Shown one piece after another: positions 3,562-58,905 of a stretch of DNA of 64,000 nucleotides; the first letter of the stretch is position 1; each line of letters opens with the position of its first letter. Position numbers and translations under genes: made by a program. A model generated the notes under the pieces. That model was given only the letters and a program-made list of their open reading frames with translations, did no database searches and was not told where the DNA came from. The DNA comes from Escherichia phage Ge15: the sequence record PP359696.1; one strand, written 5' to 3'.

Positions 3562-4258
<697 letters not shown>

Positions 4259-6155: not shown

Positions 6156-6806
6156 ATGACTCGTCGTGAGACGCTCAGTTCTTTATTAGGGACTGATATG
6201 CATTTTTATCTTTATAAAATAACAAATAAAATTAATAATAAAATTTATATTGGTGTGCATTCTACCGAAAATTTAGATGATGGATATATGGGTTCTGGTA
6301 AATTATTAAAAAGAGCCCAAGATAAATATGGTATAGAAAATTTTTCTAAAGAAATATTAGAGTATTTTGATGATAAAGAATCTATGCTTGAAGCCGAGAA
6401 AAATATTGTCACAGAAGAGTTTTTAAATAGACCAGATGTGTATAATTTAAAACTTGGAGGTGAAGGTGGATGGGACCATATAAATAATTATCCTATGACA
6501 GATCAGCAACGCGAATTAATTTCATTGGGTGTTAAAAAGGCACATTCTAACGGAAAATTAAAAGGATGGTCTTCAAATGGATTAATGAAGAATGGCTTTA
6601 CTGGTAAAACTCATTCTCAAGAAGCTAAACGTAAAATAGCAAAAGCAAACGAAGCAAAAGTTTCTGCGGATGAAAGAAAAAGAAGAATAGAAATTTCTAA
6701 ATTATATGATTTTTCTAAGCGTGGTGAATTATCTAAATATGCTAAGCATATTGGCGTAAGTCATACTCAAGCAAAAAGAATTCTAAATCAAATTAACAAT
6801 ATATAA
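6156..6806 (+). CDS. segB: GIY-YIG homing endonuclease SegB-like
   Basis: GIY-YIG motifs (YLYKITNKINNKIYIGVH ... YMGSG) in an ORF embedded in the tRNA cluster as T4 segB; true start may be ATG 6198. Confidence 0.75.
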   Translation: MTRRETLSSLLGTDMHFYLYKITNKINNKIYIGVHSTENLDDGYMGSGKLLKRAQDKYGIENFSKEILEYFDDKESMLEAEKNIVTEEFLNRPDVYNLKLGGEGGWDHINNYPMTDQQRELISLGVKKAHSNGKLKGWSSNGLMKNGFTGKTHSQEAKRKIAKANEAKVSADERKRRIEISKLYDFSKRGELSKYAKHIGVSHTQAKRILNQINNI

Positions 6807-11659: not shown

Positions 11660-12144
11660 TTTTAAAAACTCGCTGGTATGATTTAGATGATGGGGACGAT
11701 GGCATTTCAGTCGATAGAGTTGACTGGAGCGGCTGTTCTGAAGATACAAAGAAACGATTAATTAGGGAGTTTAGAATGGGATATCAAGCAGTTAAGCCAT
11801 CTACTGTAACAGATGATAAATTCGTGTGTATTCAAAATGGTCGTGCTAAGTTAACGAACGCTGATTGGTTCACAGATAAGAAGGTTATTCTGTGGTATAT
11901 TATTAGTTTTCCTGTGACATCATTTGTATTTTGCTTCTTTGGAGAAAGTCCAGTAGGCAGAACGGAAGATTGGATTCTTTTAATTATACTTGTTAATATT
12001 TTTACAGCAGCAGTACTATCAGGAATATGGTGCGTGTTCATTGAAATGCCATGGCGGTTACGTAGGCAGCAAAAGATTTTTGATGAAAAGAAATATACTC
12101 AAAATTTAAATAATTTTATCACTGAATGCAGGAAATTAAAATGA
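11656..12144 (+). CDS. membrane protein, paralog family member
   Basis: 162-aa ORF, TM helices, tail ending NNFITECRKLK. Confidence 0.55.
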   Translation: MILKTRWYDLDDGDDGISVDRVDWSGCSEDTKKRLIREFRMGYQAVKPSTVTDDKFVCIQNGRAKLTNADWFTDKKVILWYIISFPVTSFVFCFFGESPVGRTEDWILLIILVNIFTAAVLSGIWCVFIEMPWRLRRQQKIFDEKKYTQNLNNFITECRKLK

Positions 12145-12581
12145 AAACATTATCAGCTGGTATTATCTTTATGACAGAAGATAAAGATTTATTTATGGGA
12201 CGAGTTACTGGTTCTCGTAAGCCTGGAATGATGGCACATCGCTGGGATATTCCAAAGGGGCGTGTAGAAAATTCTGATTTAAGCGCATTAGATGCAGCAC
12301 GAAGAGAATGCTCAGAAGAGACTGGTTTTAACAATTATAATCCAGACCTTCTAGAAGACCTAGGTGTATTTAAATATTCTAGTAATAAAGACTTACAGTT
12401 ATTTTATTATACGATTCCAGTAGAGCATGAGATGTTCAGAAATTGCCATTGCGAGTCTTATTTTGAAAATAAAGATGGTGTTATGATTCCAGAGATGGAT
12501 GCTTTTGCCCTTATTCCTCGTACTCAGTGGCAATATGTGATGGGTCCTTCACTTTACCGAATAATGAACAGCCTCTTTTAA
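12126..12581 (+). CDS. nudE: Nudix hydrolase NudE
   Basis: 151-aa ORF with Nudix box GRVENSDLSALDAARRECSEETG directly upstream of e, as T4 nudE. Confidence 0.85.
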   Translation: MQEIKMKTLSAGIIFMTEDKDLFMGRVTGSRKPGMMAHRWDIPKGRVENSDLSALDAARRECSEETGFNNYNPDLLEDLGVFKYSSNKDLQLFYYTIPVEHEMFRNCHCESYFENKDGVMIPEMDAFALIPRTQWQYVMGPSLYRIMNSLF

Positions 12582-14405: not shown

Positions 14406-14540
14406 TATGGGAACAGCCTGGACCTCATTTGAGGTATTCCCGCCAACCTGTGATAAGGTCGAGCCAAAGCGCGGTAATGGGTAATGCAGGAATGGACAAC
14501 TCATGTGCCATGGAATGGCCCAAAAATTAAGAGAGAAAAT

Positions 14541-15083
14541 ATGAAAACATTTTTAACTGGCCCGTATCTATCCCTGATGAATGCTTTTACACACCATTCT
14601 GATGCTAGAGTAGAAGAAATTTGTAAAAACGAATATATCCCGCCATTTGAAGAATTACTTAAACAGTACTGTACACTTCGTATAGATGGTGGACGTCAAT
14701 CCGGTAAATCACTTGCTGTGACTAACTTTGCTGCTAATTGGCTGTATGATGGCGGAACAGTTATTGTTCTATCTAATACTTCAGCTTACGCTAAAATTTC
14801 TGCAAATAACATTAAAAAGGAATTTTCGCGTTATTCTAATGATGATATACGTTTTCGTTTATTTACTGATTCTGTGCGCAGTTTTATTGGTAATAGAGGT
14901 AGCAAGTTCAGAGGTTTATCGCTTTCACGAATTTTGTATATAATTGATGAGCCTGTTAAATCTCCTGATATGGATAAAATTTACGATATTCATATTGAAA
15001 CTGTGCAACACTGTTGTCGAAGCTATAATGCTGAAACAGGTGAAACAGTTCGTCCTCAATTTTTTGTGATTGGAATGCAATGA
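14541..15083 (+). CDS. P-loop NTPase-like hypothetical protein
   Basis: 180-aa ORF from ATG 14541 (RBS GAGAGA); Walker A-like GGRQSGKS and Walker B-like ILYIIDEP. Confidence 0.5.
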   Translation: MKTFLTGPYLSLMNAFTHHSDARVEEICKNEYIPPFEELLKQYCTLRIDGGRQSGKSLAVTNFAANWLYDGGTVIVLSNTSAYAKISANNIKKEFSRYSNDDIRFRLFTDSVRSFIGNRGSKFRGLSLSRILYIIDEPVKSPDMDKIYDIHIETVQHCCRSYNAETGETVRPQFFVIGMQ

Positions 15084-16539: not shown

Positions 16540-16569
16540 GTTTACTTTTCCTCTTGACTGTGGTATAAT
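16540..16569 (+). promoter_or_regulatory. early promoter (GTTTAC ... TGGTATAAT)
   Basis: -35 GTTTAC, 18-nt spacer, extended -10 TGGTATAAT upstream of regB. Confidence 0.65.
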
Positions 16570-16596: not shown

Positions 16597-17058
16597 ATGA
16601 CTATCAACACAGAAGTTTTTATCCGTCGAAATAAGCTCCGTCGTCACTTTGAGTCGGAGTTTCGTCAAATTAACAATGAGATTCGTGAGGCATCAAAAGC
16701 AGCAGGGGTCTCATCGTTTCATCTAAAATATTCTCAGCATCTTCTTGATCGTGCAATTCAACGGGAGATTGATGAGACATATGTTTTTGAATTATTCCAT
16801 AAAATAAAAGATCATGTTTTAGAAGTTAATGAATTCCTGAGTATGCCTCCGCGTCCTGACATTGACGAGGATTTTATTGATGGGGTTGAATATCGTCCTG
16901 GACGTTTAGAAATCACAGATGGAAATCTTTGGCTTGGATTTACAGTTTGTAAGCCTAATGAGAAGTTCAAAAACCCGTCACTTCAATGCAGGATGGCAAT
17001 TATCAACAGTCGTCGTTTACCAGGAAAGGCTTCTAAAGCAGTAATTAAAACTCAATGA
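16597..17058 (+). CDS. regB: endoribonuclease RegB
   Basis: 153-aa ORF MTINTEVFIRRNKLRRHFESEFRQ..., recognised as T4 RegB. Confidence 0.95.
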   Translation: MTINTEVFIRRNKLRRHFESEFRQINNEIREASKAAGVSSFHLKYSQHLLDRAIQREIDETYVFELFHKIKDHVLEVNEFLSMPPRPDIDEDFIDGVEYRPGRLEITDGNLWLGFTVCKPNEKFKNPSLQCRMAIINSRRLPGKASKAVIKTQ

Positions 17059-17611: not shown

Positions 17612-17945
17612 AATTTTGGTTTTATGTATAGGATTAATTTCATTTTCTGCGTTAGCAGATACATCATATACTGAAATTAGAGAGTATGTAAACCGTACTG
17701 CAGCGGATTATTGCGGGAAAAATAAAGCATGCCAAGCTGAATTTGCGCAGAAATTAATATATGCATATAAAGACGGAGAAAGAGATAAATCAAGCAGATA
17801 CAAAAATGATACATTGTTAAAACGATATGCTAAAAAGTGGAATACCTTAGAATGTTCAGTTGCGGAGGAGAAAGATAAAGCCGCTTGTCATTCAATGGTT
17901 GACCGTTTGGTAGATTCTTATAATCGAGGATTGAGTACTAGATGA
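17604..17945 (+). CDS. periplasmic protein with signal peptide (in the vs position)
   Basis: 113-aa ORF, N-terminal signal peptide MTKILVLCIGLISFSALA. Confidence 0.5.
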   Translation: MTKILVLCIGLISFSALADTSYTEIREYVNRTAADYCGKNKACQAEFAQKLIYAYKDGERDKSSRYKNDTLLKRYAKKWNTLECSVAEEKDKAACHSMVDRLVDSYNRGLSTR

Positions 17946-18421
17946 TTGTAAAATATATCAAGGGCGATATTGTCGCCCTCTTTCTTGAAGGTAATATTAT
18001 TGCGCACGGGTGCAATTGTTTTCATACAATGGGCAGTGGTGTAGCTGGTCAATTAGCAAGAGCCTATCCCAAAATTTTAGAAATAGATAAGACCACAACT
18101 GAATATGGTTCGCGTGAAAAACTCGGTGATATGTCTATTGTTTTTAAACATAAACCTAATGGTTTTGGCATATGTTATAACTTGTATACGCAATACGAAC
18201 CAGGTCCTAATCTTGATTATGGTGCTTTAGTAAACTGCATGATAGAATTAAATCTACAGGCAGAAACCCTTTTGTTTAAACCGGTAATTTACATTCCACG
18301 CATAGGTTGTGGTATTGCTGGCGGCGATTGGGATAAGGTTTCTAAATTAATCGACATGTTTACTCCTGATATTGATTTAATAGTGGTGGATTATGAAAGT
18401 GCATTACCCGCATCCGTTTGA
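17942..18421 (+). CDS. macro-domain protein (putative ADP-ribose binding / de-ADP-ribosylating enzyme)
   Basis: 159-aa ORF with macro-domain hallmarks GDIVALF...IAHGCNCFHTMGSGVAGQL and IGCGIAGGD. Confidence 0.65.
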   Translation: MIVKYIKGDIVALFLEGNIIAHGCNCFHTMGSGVAGQLARAYPKILEIDKTTTEYGSREKLGDMSIVFKHKPNGFGICYNLYTQYEPGPNLDYGALVNCMIELNLQAETLLFKPVIYIPRIGCGIAGGDWDKVSKLIDMFTPDIDLIVVDYESALPASV

Positions 18422-18605
18422 TCCTAAAAACAAAGCAGTAATTATTCGTCAATGGGAACGCATTTGCCGTACTAAATGTCCAATTAATAGTCCACATGAT
18501 GTAGATAAAGACTACATTGGAACATTCGTTGAATATACCTTTATTGATAAGAAAGGTCGTAAACAACATGTAGAAGAATATTGCTTAAAGGTTACATGGT
18601 TATGA
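18393..18605 (+). CDS. hypothetical Cys-containing small protein
   Basis: 70-aa ORF with GGTGGA RBS. Confidence 0.45.
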   Translation: MKVHYPHPFDPKNKAVIIRQWERICRTKCPINSPHDVDKDYIGTFVEYTFIDKKGRKQHVEEYCLKVTWL

Positions 18606-18626
18606 GCCAAACTAGTATTCTTAAAA

Positions 18627-18809
18627 ATGCCCACTGTGAAAAGTGTAAGTGGCCGGTTGTTTTTTGCTTTATGCAACGATGAAATGGCTTGTGATTTCGA
18701 TTATTGGTGCTATTGTTCTAATAAAGGATGCATCAATCATAAAGGTGAAGGATTTTATTCAGGATTTTACCCTTATCCTGATTTCGTTAAAGAAGGTAAA
18801 CCAAAATGA
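18627..18809 (+). CDS. hypothetical Cys-rich small protein
   Basis: 60-aa ORF with seven Cys (CDFDYWCYCSNKGCINH); possible zinc-binding. Confidence 0.45.
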   Translation: MPTVKSVSGRLFFALCNDEMACDFDYWCYCSNKGCINHKGEGFYSGFYPYPDFVKEGKPK

Positions 18810-18982
18810 ATGATGATTTAAAATATCAATTATTACGTGAACTTGATGTTTTGATTGAACTTTCTGCACAAAAAGGATTTATAATTGGATCGGGTCAAAA
18901 AGACCCCAACGGTCATTCAATCGTAGCGGTTATGAATCAGAAACGAGTCATTTTAAAACTTTTGGGGATTGACATACTGTGA
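18806..18982 (+). CDS. hypothetical small protein
   Basis: 58-aa ORF (below track cutoff) from ATG 18806, coupled to neighbours. Confidence 0.4.
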   Translation: MNDDLKYQLLRELDVLIELSAQKGFIIGSGQKDPNGHSIVAVMNQKRVILKLLGIDIL

Positions 18983-19164
18983 GCCTAAGCAAAGAACAAA
19001 AAGATAAATTGTTTGAGCTTATCCATGAACTTCTAGATGAGCATGCAGAAGCAAACACCTTTTATGATGAATACGGCCCGCTATCTCCCGAACAGCAGGA
19101 AGAATTTGCTGATCGGTTTGATAAGAAAGAAAATGAATTAATAGCTTATGTGAATACGCTTTAA
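18979..19164 (+). CDS. hypothetical acidic small protein
   Basis: 61-aa ORF, GTG start overlapping upstream stop. Confidence 0.45.
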   Translation: MSLSKEQKDKLFELIHELLDEHAEANTFYDEYGPLSPEQQEEFADRFDKKENELIAYVNTL

Positions 19165-19173
19165 GAAGGTGAT

Positions 19174-19755
19174 ATGGCGAGTTTAATTTTTACTTATGCA
19201 GCAATGAATGCTGGAAAATCTGCTTCTCTTTTGACTGCTGCACATAATTATAAAGAACGTGGAATGAGTGTATTAGTTCTTAAGCCTGCTATTGATACTC
19301 GCGATTCTGTCTGTGAAGTTGTTTCTCGCATTGGAATTAAACAGGAAGCGAATATTATTACAGATGATATGGATATTTTCGAGTTCTATAAATGGGCTGA
19401 AGCACAAAAAGATATTCATTGCGTATTTGTAGATGAAGCTCAGTTTTTAAAAACTGAACAGGTGCACCAATTAAGCCGAATTGTTGATACATATAATGTT
19501 CCTGTTATGGCTTATGGATTAAGGACTGATTTCGCTGGAAAATTGTTTGAAGGTTCTAAAGAACTTTTAGCGATTGCAGATAAACTTATTGAACTAAAGG
19601 CAGTTTGTCATTGCGGCAAAAAAGCGATTATGACAGCTCGATTAATGGAAGATGGAACACCAGTTAAAGAAGGTAATCAAATCTGTATTGGTGATGAAAT
19701 TTATGTTTCTTTGTGCAGAAAACATTGGAATGAATTAACTAAAAAGCTTGGTTAG
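19174..19755 (+). CDS. tk: thymidine kinase
   Basis: 193-aa ORF with P-loop AAMNAGKSASLL and zinc ribbon CHCGKK...CRKH; T4 Tk. Confidence 0.9.
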   Translation: MASLIFTYAAMNAGKSASLLTAAHNYKERGMSVLVLKPAIDTRDSVCEVVSRIGIKQEANIITDDMDIFEFYKWAEAQKDIHCVFVDEAQFLKTEQVHQLSRIVDTYNVPVMAYGLRTDFAGKLFEGSKELLAIADKLIELKAVCHCGKKAIMTARLMEDGTPVKEGNQICIGDEIYVSLCRKHWNELTKKLG

Positions 19756-57125: not shown

Positions 57126-57308
57126 ATGGAATTGGTAAAGGTAGTTTTTATGGGGTGGTTTAAGAATGAAAGCATGTTTACTAAAGAAATCACAATGATG
57201 AAAGATGACGTTCAATGGGCTACTACTCAATATGCTGAAGTTAATAAAGCATTAGTTAAAGCTTTCATTGATGACAAGAAAGTGTGCGAAGTGGATTGCC
57301 GAGGATAA
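57126..57308 (+). CDS. dmd: Dmd (inhibitor of RnlA/LsoA toxins)
   Basis: 60-aa ORF immediately downstream of gene 41; T4 Dmd size and position. Confidence 0.85.
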   Translation: MELVKVVFMGWFKNESMFTKEITMMKDDVQWATTQYAEVNKALVKAFIDDKKVCEVDCRG

Positions 57309-57627: not shown

Positions 57628-57921
57628 ATGAAAAAATTTATCTTTGCTACAATTTTTGCTTTAGCTTCTTGTGCTGCTCAGCCTGCTATGGCAGGTTATG
57701 ATAAAGATTTGTGCGAATGGTCTATGACTGCTGATCAGACTGAGGTTGAAACTCAAATTGAAGCGGATATTATGAATATTGTTGAGCGCGATCGTCCTGA
57801 AATGAAAGCTGAAGTGCAAAAACAGCTTAAGTCTGGTGGTGTAATGCAGTATAATTATGTTCTGTATTGCGATAAAAACTTTAATAACAAAAATATCATC
57901 GCTGAAGTGGTAGGTGAATAA
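57628..57921 (+). CDS. sp: spackle periplasmic protein Sp
   Basis: 97-aa ORF with signal peptide MKKFIFATIFALASCAAQPAMA; T4 Sp size and position. Confidence 0.85.
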   Translation: MKKFIFATIFALASCAAQPAMAGYDKDLCEWSMTADQTEVETQIEADIMNIVERDRPEMKAEVQKQLKSGGVMQYNYVLYCDKNFNNKNIIAEVVGE

Positions 57922-58547
57922 TGCTTTATCAAATGCACAAGTGCAAAGATACATACAAATATAAAGGTGCCCAGTGTTATATCATTAATCGTGAAAACGC
58001 GGGTCCAGGTCATTCGCATCAATCACGGTTTGTATTCGTTAAAAACAATGAAATTATAGCAGTTGCTAATTACATGCTTGTGACTAATGATGTTAATCCG
58101 GTGCCTTTTACATATTATAATCTAATGGATTTGGCGTACGATTATAATTGGTTTAATCATGACACTTTGGCTCATATCGAAGGCGTAGGATTTGACATCT
58201 CTTATTCTAGTTACTCGTTGTGTCCTATGAGCCGAGCTCATAAAGAGCCTGAATATTTTTCATTTCGTCGGCGTGTAGACTTTAAACGCAGTACAGAGTA
58301 TGTCGGTGGAATATTTGTTAAAGATAATCGAATTACTCGCATTATTTATCCTTTGGGCTGTGGTCAAAAAGATATTGATGTTGATTTAGACTTTACTGAA
58401 AACATCATTAATCATATTGCTTCTGTGTATTTTGATATTGATCACAAAATTGTGATATGTGGATATGAATTACCATCAGAAAAACAGTCTAAAGTAAATG
58501 TTTCTATTGATGACCAAATTTTTAATGCTTTTATGAATAAAGGTTAA
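57921..58547 (+). CDS. gp61.2-like protein (position of the anti-DarTG factor adfA, as I recall it)
   Basis: 208-aa ORF after sp; C-terminus SIDDQIFNAFMNKG repeated in the next gene. Confidence 0.55.
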   Translation: MLYQMHKCKDTYKYKGAQCYIINRENAGPGHSHQSRFVFVKNNEIIAVANYMLVTNDVNPVPFTYYNLMDLAYDYNWFNHDTLAHIEGVGFDISYSSYSLCPMSRAHKEPEYFSFRRRVDFKRSTEYVGGIFVKDNRITRIIYPLGCGQKDIDVDLDFTENIINHIASVYFDIDHKIVICGYELPSEKQSKVNVSIDDQIFNAFMNKG

Positions 58548-58551
58548 TATG
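58503..58551 (+). repeat. 49-bp direct repeat copy 1 (gene 3' end plus next-gene start junction)
   Basis: TCTATTGATGACCAAATTTTTAATGCTTTTATGAATA[A/G]AGGTTAATATG occurs at 58503 and again at 58861 with one mismatch. Confidence 0.85.
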
Positions 58552-58905
58552 TATAGTTCTGAATTTTCATATTTAAAAATGGAAAAAATTTCATACGATT
58601 TTATAGATGAAAAGGTTTATTACAGTTTCCATGAACCACGTTTTAATAGTGAGGTTGGGTTTATTGTAGTAAAAGACAATTTCATTTTAAAGATATATTC
58701 AGCATTAAAGGATTTTCACTACGAAAATATTAACCTAAAATTTGATAAAGAAAACGTTCGTAATTGTGCAGTAACAATTACAGGAAATAAAGGCACATGT
58801 GTTATGCTATCTGATGAAATTAATGATTTGCTAAATGATGCCGAAAAGGTTGCTATTCCATCTATTGATGACCAAATTTTTAATGCTTTTATGAATAGAG
58901 GTTAA
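58549..58905 (+). CDS. gp61.1-like hypothetical protein
   Basis: 118-aa ORF ending SIDDQIFNAFMNRG. Confidence 0.55.
   Translation: MYSSEFSYLKMEKISYDFIDEKVYYSFHEPRFNSEVGFIVVKDNFILKIYSALKDFHYENINLKFDKENVRNCAVTITGNKGTCVMLSDEINDLLNDAEKVAIPSIDDQIFNAFMNRG

What the first reader, a model, noticed from the sequence alone, without database searches (positions are those of the whole stretch)
17942..18421. Macro-domain protein in the early accessory region
Clear macro-domain motifs (GDI..., HGCNCFHTMGSGVAGQ, IGCGIAGGD) in a 159-aa early ORF. Macro domains bind or hydrolyse ADP-ribose adducts. In a phage this could reverse ADP-ribosylation of DNA or protein by host defences such as DarT-like toxins, process NAD-derived immune signals, or counterbalance the phage's own Alt/Mod ADP-ribosyltransferases.
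Basis: partly seen in the sequence, partly recalled or inferred. Interest (0 to 1): 0.6.

Follow-up and report, generated by a model that had tools for sequence, protein, structure and literature searches.

The report
Phage T4 tk.4/AdfM macrodomain gene
The ORF is a real macro-domain gene, the counterpart of phage T4 tk.4 (recently named adfM), which lets T4 escape the bacterial DarTG2 defence, most likely by stripping ADP-ribose off phage DNA, so the gene is already known.

Summary

The window is a Tequatrovirus, 99.9% identical to phage AdolfPortmann. The gene sits between vs and tk.3, so it is the positional ortholog of T4 tk.4.

A 2025 preprint found tk.4 as the only T4 transposon-screen hit on a DarTG2 host. 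A clean knockout made T4 sensitive, and the gene was named adfM. It is not tested for this allele.

Three details appear in none of the papers I read:
- The catalytic position holds an invariant Gln (Q84), as in Streptomyces SCO6735, not the Lys of DarG/TARG1.
- Bacterial homologs stand alone in housekeeping neighbourhoods, with no recurring partner gene.
- tk.4 is a swapped cassette. It is 58% identical to the T4 allele inside flanks 96-100% identical to T4, and 92.5% identical to Dhakavirus JS98. Each allele type occurs in about 350-385 phage records.

Verdict: real, and already known. Interest is low to moderate.

The parts
17942..18421 (+). tk.4/adfM ORF: a 159-aa stand-alone macrodomain protein (coordinates include the stop codon)
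17926..17930 (+). GAGGA Shine-Dalgarno-like element. The tk.4 ATG (17942-17944) overlaps the vs stop codon (17943-17945), which suggests translational coupling.
   Evidence: Read directly from the sequence and the ORF list. The coupling is an inference.
18005..18052 (+). Codons for H22-Q37 (HGCNCFHTMGSGVAGQ): ADP-ribose-binding loop 1, including the invariant H22, N25 (18014-18016), G31 and G33
   Evidence: The alignments put N25 opposite SCO6735 N27 and Thermus DarG N22. N25 is present in 255 of 258 homologs. SCO6735 N27S almost abolishes activity.
18191..18193 (+). Codon CAA for Q84, at the structural position of the catalytic Lys of DarG (K80) and TARG1 (K84) and equal to Gln85 of SCO6735
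   Evidence: MAFFT alignment A3 and hhalign. Q is present in 257 of 258 homologs and in 80 of 80 bacterial loci. SCO6735 Q85A and Q85E lose all activity.
18302..18331 (+). Codons for I121-W130 (IGCGIAGGDW): the phosphate-binding loop. G122 and G124 correspond to SCO6735 G126 and G128. A126 sits where TARG1 has its catalytic D125.
   Evidence: SCO6735 G128E loses a substantial part of its activity.
17980..18440 (.). Divergent allele block. DNA identity to T4 falls from about 100% to 45-80% over this stretch, which is almost exactly the tk.4 ORF, then returns to about 100%.
   Evidence: Sliding identity and per-gene identities. The window-type block occurs in 350 phage records and the T4-type block in 385.
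17961..17979 (+). G+C-rich hairpin (8 bp stem, 3-nt loop) inside the 5' end of the ORF, immediately before the left edge of the divergent block
   Evidence: Found by the scan. It is identical in T4, and the stem is kept in JS98. The DalCa record annotates it as a terminator. The fold z-score is only -1.44. Its role is unknown.
16541..16569 (+). Sigma-70-like promoter match (TTTACT-17-TATAAT with TG) upstream of regB. It is a candidate early promoter for the regB-vs.1-vs-tk.4 block.
   Evidence: This is a consensus match only, and such matches are not enriched over shuffled sequence in the region.

Best explanation
The ORF is this Tequatrovirus's tk.4 gene, recently renamed adfM (anti-DarT factor, macrodomain). 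It encodes a single-domain macrodomain enzyme of the ALC1-like class.

Most likely mechanism: when the host DarT2 toxin ADP-ribosylates thymidines in single-stranded phage DNA and so blocks replication, the protein binds the ADP-ribose through its two glycine-rich loops and hydrolyses the thymine-ribose bond. Unmodified DNA is restored and the phage can grow on DarTG2 hosts.

Its active site is of the SCO6735 type. An invariant Gln (Q84), held in place by Asn (N25), positions the distal ribose, and a water molecule does the chemistry. This differs from the Lys-based site of DarG and TARG1.

Shown here: the domain, the fold class, the conserved residues, the orthology and the allele structure. 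Shown by others: the T4 allele is needed for growth on DarTG2, and SCO6735 cleaves thymidine-linked ADP-ribose and needs Gln85 and Asn27. Inferred: this allele does the same, and it does so enzymatically.
For: - Orthology: gene order regB-vs.1-vs-tk.4-tk.3 is the same as in T4 and JS98. The protein is 58% identical to T4 Tk.4 over 155 aa without gaps, E=5e-70.
- Function of the ortholog: tk.4 was the single significant hit on a DarTG2 host, and a clean knockout was sensitised. T4 lacking adfA and adfN stays DarTG2-resistant, so another factor had been predicted.
- Active site: H22, N25, Q84, G122 and G124 are invariant in 40 homologs. N25 is present in 255 of 258 and Q84 in 257 of 258 homologs. 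They align with SCO6735 H24, N27, Q85, G126 and G128. The N27S, Q85A/E and G128E mutants of SCO6735 lose most or all activity on dT-ADPr DNA, and SCO6735 rescues DarT toxicity.
- Profile comparison: hhalign places the family closer to SCO6735 (E=1.5e-16) than to Thermus DarG (1.8e-12) or PhiKZ gp104 (9.6e-9).
- Precedent: the macrodomain of PhiKZ-like phages removes DarT2 marks from DNA in vitro.
Against: - No experiment exists for this allele. It shares only 58% identity with the T4 protein that was tested.
- The T4 result is a preprint, seen under special conditions (30 C, minimal medium). It shows a genetic requirement, not enzyme activity. The authors themselves write only that enzymatic removal 'seems likely'.
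- Two SCO6735 residues that position DNA have no counterpart. Lys34 aligns with S32. Lys89 lies in a 5-residue 'mobile loop' insert that this protein lacks.
- Substrate cannot be read from sequence. The same class includes protein-Glu/Asp hydrolases (TARG1) and an ADP-ribose-1''-phosphatase (Poa1p).
Confidence: 0.72

Rival explanations
1. The protein protects against DarTG2 mainly without catalysis, by binding and blocking the DarT2 toxin. Hydrolysis would be secondary or absent.
For: Catalytically dead SCO6735 Q85A still inhibits DarT in vitro, more strongly than the dead DarG and TARG1 mutants. The other T-even and Vibrio factors, AdfA and AdfB, work by binding the toxin. Two deeply diverged alleles exchanged as cassettes are what co-evolution with a variable protein partner would produce. 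A pure eraser of a fixed chemical mark would be less likely to diverge this way.
Against: Every residue needed for catalysis in SCO6735 is invariant across 258 homologs and 80 bacterial loci. That argues for selection on enzyme activity. The protein has no counterpart of the C-terminal DarT-binding domain of DarG: it is 159 aa and matches only positions 2-138 of the 338-position DarG model.
Confidence: 0.1
2. It acts on small soluble ADP-ribose derivatives rather than on DNA. Candidates are ADP-ribose-1''-phosphate (the database label 'phosphatase'), O-acetyl-ADP-ribose, or NAD-derived immune signals such as Thoeris cyclic ADP-ribose isomers.
Against: The label is homology transfer only. From established knowledge, T4 RNA repair (Pnkp and Rnl1) does not use the Tpt1/KptA step that produces ADP-ribose-1''-phosphate. 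The only phenotype on record for tk.4 is with DarTG2. The Poa1p sequence match is strong only over the N-terminal half, and Poa1p has Ser rather than Gln at the key position.
Confidence: 0.1
3. It erases ADP-ribose (or RNA chains) that the phage's own Alt, ModA and ModB transferases attach to host proteins, and so tunes that reprogramming.
For: T-even phages are known to carry three ADP-ribosyltransferases (established knowledge, and PMC9503650). A writer-eraser pair would be a natural arrangement.
Against: Alt and Mod enzymes modify arginine. From established knowledge, the known activities of the ALC1-like class are on Glu/Asp esters and on thymidine, and arginine-specific macrodomains such as MavL belong to another type. 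No Alt/Mod gene lies beside tk.4. Bacterial homologs exist without any transferase partner.
Confidence: 0.05

Closest known systems
Phage T4 Tk.4 = AdfM (NP_049723; bioRxiv 10.1101/2025.11.20.689424)
   Same: Same position between vs and tk.3. Same length class (155 vs 159 aa). A 155-aa alignment without gaps at 58% identity. The same invariant H, N, Q and Gly residues.
   Different: It is a distinct allele class. Identity is only 58%, although the flanking genes are 96-100% identical. The phosphate loop reads IGCGIAGGDW here and IGAGIGKGNW in T4. The overlap with tk.3 is 29 nt here and 4 nt in T4. Only the T4 allele has been tested genetically.
Streptomyces coelicolor SCO6735 and Bacteroides Bt_1257 (PDB 5E3B, 2FG1/2AFC)
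   Different: Only about 27-30% identical. It lacks the 5-residue 'mobile loop' insert that defines that subclass, including Lys89, and has Ser where SCO6735 has Lys34. It is a phage anti-defence gene rather than a bacterial DNA-damage-inducible gene.
DarG2 antitoxin macrodomain (Thermus aquaticus and M. tuberculosis; PDB 5M31, 5M3E, 5M3I)
   Different: Gln replaces the catalytic Lys80. There is no C-terminal DarT-binding domain and no adjacent darT gene. It scores 28 bits against the 250-bit cut-off of the NCBIfam DarG model.
Chimallivirus AdfM (PhiKZ gp104; Cell Rep 2026, PMC13309987)
   Same: A phage-encoded, single-domain macrodomain that counters DarTG2. It carries the same name.
   Different: It is not an ortholog. 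BLASTP finds only a 31-residue match at E=0.001. gp104 is of the DarG type: it scores 132.9 bits on the PADLOC DarG model against 27.9 here, and has Lys78 at the catalytic position. gp104 is imported into the phage nucleus, which T4-like phages do not have. The two look like independent acquisitions.
Human TARG1 and yeast Poa1p
   Different: TARG1 uses a Lys84/Asp125 pair, which here are Q84 and A126. Poa1p is an ADP-ribose-1''-phosphatase, and its sequence match is strong mainly over the N-terminal half.

Membership tests
Macro domain (Pfam PF01661) | Profile match above the curated gathering score | tested here: met
   34.4 bits against a cut-off of 22, E=2.4e-8, covering 2-117 of 118 profile positions.
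Macro domain (Pfam PF01661) | Three-layer alpha/beta/alpha fold with a central mixed sheet, plus two glycine-rich ADP-ribose-binding loops | tested here: met
ALC1-like macrodomain class (TARG1, DarG, SCO6735, Poa1p) | Closer in structure and sequence to members of this class than to MacroD, PARG or viral macrodomains | tested here: met
T4 Tk.4/AdfM orthologous group | Conserved genomic position between vs and tk.3 in a Tevenvirinae genome | tested here: met
   The flanking genes are 96-100% identical to those of T4.
T4 Tk.4/AdfM orthologous group | Full-length sequence similarity to T4 Tk.4 | tested here: met
   58% identity over 155 aa with no gaps, E=5e-70.
T4 Tk.4/AdfM orthologous group | Required for plaque formation on a DarTG2-expressing host | not testable with these tools
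   Shown only for the T4 allele.
DarG antitoxin (NCBIfam NF048014, PADLOC DarG) | Score above the equivalog cut-off, including the C-terminal DarT-binding domain | tested here: not met
   28 bits against a cut-off of 250. Only model positions 2-138 of 338 are matched. The PADLOC DarG score is 27.9 bits, against 132.9 for PhiKZ gp104.
DarG antitoxin (NCBIfam NF048014, PADLOC DarG) | Catalytic lysine (Thermus K80) | tested here: not met
   Q84 occupies that column.
DarG antitoxin (NCBIfam NF048014, PADLOC DarG) | Adjacent darT toxin gene | tested here: not met
   The neighbours are vs and tk.3. In 80 bacterial loci no neighbour-gene cluster recurs in more than 9 loci. The clusters scanned against Pfam are housekeeping genes: the ileS class, rpoC, rpsL and lspA.
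SCO6735/Bt_1257 subclass | Gln at the catalytic position, positioned by a conserved Asn, plus conserved His and two loop Gly | tested here: met
   H22, N25, Q84, G122 and G124 align with H24, N27, Q85, G126 and G128. They are invariant in the family.
SCO6735/Bt_1257 subclass | Extended 'mobile loop' (a 5-residue insert after the Gln, carrying Lys89), and Lys34 | tested here: not met
   The insert is absent, and S32 aligns with Lys34. The paper calls the long loop characteristic of the subclass.
SCO6735/Bt_1257 subclass | Hydrolysis of thymidine-linked ADP-ribose on ssDNA | not testable with these tools
   This needs a biochemical assay.
Poa1p-type ADP-ribose-1''-phosphatase (the 'phosphatase' label) | Phosphatase activity on ADPr-1''-P, and a pathway that produces this compound | not tested

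The most novel reading that the evidence does not exclude
T-even phages may carry two functionally distinct AdfM allele classes, the T4 type and the JS98/window type. These move as precise cassettes between Tequatrovirus and Dhakavirus genomes and may be tuned to different DarT2 variants or to different ADP-ribosylated nucleic-acid substrates.

The enzyme may also not be a captured DarG antitoxin at all. It could descend from Gln-type, stand-alone bacterial macrodomains of the SCO6735 kind and use a lysine-independent, water-mediated mechanism. That would be a second, independent origin of a phage anti-DarT2 macrodomain, alongside the DarG-like AdfM of nucleus-forming phages.
Probability: 0.25. 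Interest if true: 0.5.

Novelty: already known. Interest (0 to 1): 0.3.

Why it matters
DarTG is a widespread toxin-antitoxin defence that stops phages by ADP-ribosylating their DNA. T-even phages stack several counter-measures against it: AdfA, AdfN and now AdfM. This window carries both adfA (57921-58544) and adfM. Knowing that the ORF is adfM tells anyone using this phage group, which includes BASEL-collection and therapy candidates, that it should resist DarTG2 hosts.

The extra details found here give concrete experiments. They are a Gln-type active site, two allele classes at roughly equal frequency, and housekeeping-context bacterial relatives. They bear on how thymidine de-ADP-ribosylation works without a catalytic lysine. 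They also raise the question of whether an enzyme that erases a chemical mark still co-evolves with the toxin.

The gene itself is not a discovery. It has been annotated in hundreds of genomes, and its ortholog was assigned a function in 2025.

Tried and rejected
- I considered filing the protein as an orphan DarG antitoxin. I rejected membership: it scores 28 bits against a 250-bit cut-off, lacks the C-terminal domain, has Gln instead of the catalytic Lys, and has no darT neighbour.
- I considered orthology with the chimallivirus AdfM (PhiKZ gp104). I rejected it: BLASTP finds only a 31-residue match at E=0.001, and gp104 is of the DarG type.
- I checked multi-domain relatives (10 proteins of 228-546 aa) for informative fusion partners. 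Pfam finds only Macro, plus one weak ThsA_Macro match below its cut-off.
- I looked at the gene neighbourhoods of three mid-distance homologs. All look phage-like, with short unannotated ORFs, and nothing points to a partner.
- I tested whether the hairpin inside the ORF is an unusually stable RNA element. The 81-nt fold has z=-1.44, which is not significant.
- A literature search for 'AdfM' was swamped by unrelated DOI strings. A first search failed on term length.
I reran it without that row.

Full report
OBSERVATION. The ORF is exactly as described. It is an ATG-initiated frame at 17942..18421 on the + strand, 159 aa. It contains KGDIVALF, HGCNCFHTMGSGVAGQ and IGCGIAGGD. Its start codon overlaps the stop of the upstream gene (ATGA at 17942-17945), and GAGGA lies 12 nt upstream. 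It matches Pfam Macro (PF01661) at 34.4 bits against a cut-off of 22, E=2.4e-8, over nearly the whole profile. It matches PHROG 335 at E=2.5e-71. An exhaustive HMMER search finds 6214 protein clusters (50% identity level) at E<=1e-3. tblastn finds relatives in 2768 of 50,697 phage records. This is not a chance ORF.

WHERE IT SITS. The surrounding 2.8 kb is 99.9% identical to Escherichia phage AdolfPortmann and 98-99% identical to many Tequatrovirus genomes. The gene order on the + strand is regB (16597-17058), vs.1, vs, this ORF, tk.3, three small ORFs, then tk (19174-19755). This matches the T4 order regB-vs.1-vs-tk.4-tk.3-tk.2-tk.1-tk, and the JS98 record names the same gene tk.4. The protein aligns with T4 Tk.4 over 155 residues without gaps, at 58% identity and E=5e-70. 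It is therefore the positional ortholog of T4 tk.4. RefSeq labels it 'phosphatase; contains A1pp phosphatase motif'.

The next hits are coronavirus, alphavirus and PARP macrodomains at 13.6 or less. Sequence searches of the PDB recover the same set. Profile comparison ranks SCO6735 first (E=1.5e-16), then Thermus DarG (1.8e-12), then PhiKZ gp104 (9.6e-9).

ACTIVE SITE. I recovered reference sequences from PDB alignments and aligned them with the phage proteins. The correspondences are:
- N25 aligns with SCO6735 N27 and Thermus DarG N22.
- Q84 aligns with SCO6735 Q85, DarG K80, TARG1 K84 and PhiKZ gp104 K78.
- A126 sits where TARG1 has D125.
- G122 and G124 align with SCO6735 G126 and G128, and H22 with H24.
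H22, N25, Q84, G122 and G124 are invariant in a 40-sequence alignment. In 258 homologs, N25 is present in 255 and Q84 in 257. All 80 bacterial loci keep both.
The SCO6735 paper (PMC9411070) shows that Q85A and Q85E abolish activity on thymidine-ADP-ribosylated DNA. N27S almost abolishes it and G128E strongly reduces it. The same paper shows that SCO6735 rescues DarT toxicity, and it proposes a water-mediated mechanism without a catalytic lysine.
Two differences from SCO6735 stand out. The phage protein lacks the 5-residue 'mobile loop' insert that carries Lys89, and it has Ser32 in place of Lys34. Both lysines help position DNA in SCO6735.

WHAT IS ALREADY KNOWN. The preprint 'Systematic mapping of bacteriophage gene essentiality with HIDEN-SEQ' (bioRxiv 10.1101/2025.11.20.689424) infected a DarTG2 host with a T4 transposon library. 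It found tk.4 as the single significant hit. It then showed that a clean tk.4 knockout is sensitised to DarTG2, and it named the gene adfM. Enzymatic removal of ADP-ribose was stated only as likely. Earlier work had shown that T4 lacking adfA and adfN remains DarTG2-resistant and had predicted a further factor (PMC11825919). A Cell Reports 2026 paper independently gave the name AdfM to the macrodomain of nucleus-forming phages (PhiKZ gp104) and showed that it removes DarT2 marks from DNA (PMC13309987).

TWO 'AdfM' PROTEINS ARE NOT ORTHOLOGS. BLASTP between the window protein and PhiKZ gp104 finds only a 31-residue segment at E=0.001. gp104 scores 132.9 bits on the PADLOC DarG model and has the catalytic Lys. 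The window protein scores 27.9 bits and T4 Tk.4 scores 36. Against the NCBIfam DarG equivalog the window protein reaches 28 bits, where the cut-off is 250, and it covers only the macrodomain third of the model. It works like DarG but is not a member of that family.

BACTERIAL RELATIVES. A scan of one genome per species found 398 stretches encoding relatives, and 80 loci were fetched (34-43% identity). I clustered the ORFs within 2.5 kb of the macro gene. No neighbour cluster occurs in more than 9 of the 80 loci. The clusters I scanned against Pfam are housekeeping genes specific to particular lineages:
- a class-I tRNA synthetase upstream and signal peptidase II downstream in Hyphomicrobiaceae;
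- RNA polymerase beta-prime upstream and ribosomal protein S12 downstream in Ruegeria.
No toxin partner recurs. I did not search explicitly with a DarT profile. Closer homologs (40-46% identity) sit in phage-like contigs. The family therefore looks like stand-alone Gln-type macrodomains, as SCO6735 is, and not like an antitoxin cut loose from a DarTG operon.

ALLELE CASSETTE. Comparing genes one by one against T4 and JS98 gives these amino-acid identities:
- regB, vs.1, vs, tk.3 and tk are 99.3, 100, 99.1, 95.7 and 99.5% identical to T4, and 47-74% identical to JS98.
- tk.4 is 58.1% identical to T4 and 92.5% identical to JS98.
A sliding-window DNA comparison with T4 shows about 100% identity up to about 17970. 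Identity is 45-80% from about 17980 to 18440, then returns to about 100% until 18600. The replaced block is almost exactly the ORF.
Megablast with the divergent block finds the window-type allele in 350 phage records, and the corresponding T4 block in 385. Both types occur within sets of sibling isolates, for example slur13/slur07 and PYps55T/PYps11T. Identity to the window protein across phage records has a gap: 318 records are at 90% or more, and only one falls between 80 and 90%.
A second replaced block (18606-19173) covers the tk.2/tk.1 region. This dimorphism is not mentioned in the papers I read. It is the pattern expected for a gene under conflict-driven selection, but it is not evidence for any particular specificity.

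MECHANISM, WITH STATUS OF EACH STEP.
1. The protein is a folded macrodomain with an intact ADP-ribose pocket. This is shown by sequence and model.
2. It belongs to the class whose members cleave thymidine-linked ADP-ribose. The classification is shown. The activity is inferred.
3. Its ortholog is needed for T4 growth on DarTG2. This is shown by others, in a preprint.
4. It removes DarT2 marks from phage ssDNA using the Gln84/Asn25 site. This is inferred.
5. It is made early, probably from the promoter-like site at 16541-16569, and is translationally coupled to vs. This is weakly inferred.
I put 0.72 on the overall explanation. Rivals are toxin binding without catalysis (0.10), action on soluble ADP-ribose derivatives including the annotated 'phosphatase' activity (0.10), and erasing the phage's own Alt/Mod marks (0.05).

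VERDICT. The finding is real and correctly interpreted, but the gene is already known. It was annotated as a macro/A1pp protein in T4-like genomes, and its T4 ortholog was functionally assigned as adfM in 2025. The residual interest lies in three points: the Gln-type active site, the non-orthology with chimallivirus AdfM, and the two-allele cassette structure.

Noticed in passing
window 17961-17979: A G+C-rich hairpin (8-bp stem, 3-nt loop, followed by a T-rich run) lies 20 nt inside the tk.4 ORF of an AT-rich genome. It is identical in T4. In JS98 the stem is kept and only the loop changes. The DalCa record annotates it as a rho-independent terminator. The divergent allele block begins right after it, so it may mark a recombination junction or an RNA element. 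The fold z-score is only -1.44.
   Followed up: partly
window 18606-19173: This is a second mosaic block downstream of tk.3. T4 tk.1 has no counterpart here. tk.2 (18979-19164) is 52% identical to T4 and 87% identical to JS98. Two extra small ORFs are present: 18627-18809 (60 aa, Cys-rich) and 18806-18982 (58 aa).
   Followed up: partly
window 58549-58905: An extra 118-aa ORF lies between 61.2/adfA (57921-58547) and 61.1. It is 34% identical (E=4e-8) to the C-terminal half of AdfA and shares the SIDDQIFNAFMN(R/K)G tail. It looks like a truncated tandem adfA paralog. T4 has no gene at this position.
   Followed up: partly
window 3800-4255; 12126-12578; 57126-57305; 57921-58544: tblastn with T4 proteins finds other known counter-defence or NAD/ADP-ribose-related genes in the window. 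They are 57B/acb1 (99% identical), nudE, a Nudix hydrolase active on ADP-ribose (97%), dmd (100%) and 61.2/adfA (97%).
   Followed up: partly
window 6252-6548: The homing endonuclease segB gives only a partial match (T4 residues 19-117 of 221, 83% identity). This suggests a truncated or degraded copy in the tRNA region.
   Followed up: no
window 14429-15083: The vs.8 match to T4 is split into three pieces in different frames at its 5' end (14429-14482, 14455-14532, 14532-15080). The longest ORF is 14484-15083 (199 aa, against 219 aa in T4). This could be a frameshift or a different start.
   Followed up: no
L026, L070 (Ruegeria); L028, L059 (Hyphomicrobiaceae): Bacterial Gln-type homologs of this macrodomain sit in conserved housekeeping neighbourhoods. 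In several Ruegeria genomes the gene lies downstream of rpoC and upstream of rpsL. In Hyphomicrobiaceae it lies between a class-I tRNA synthetase gene and lspA. This hints at a cellular housekeeping role for the family.
   Followed up: partly
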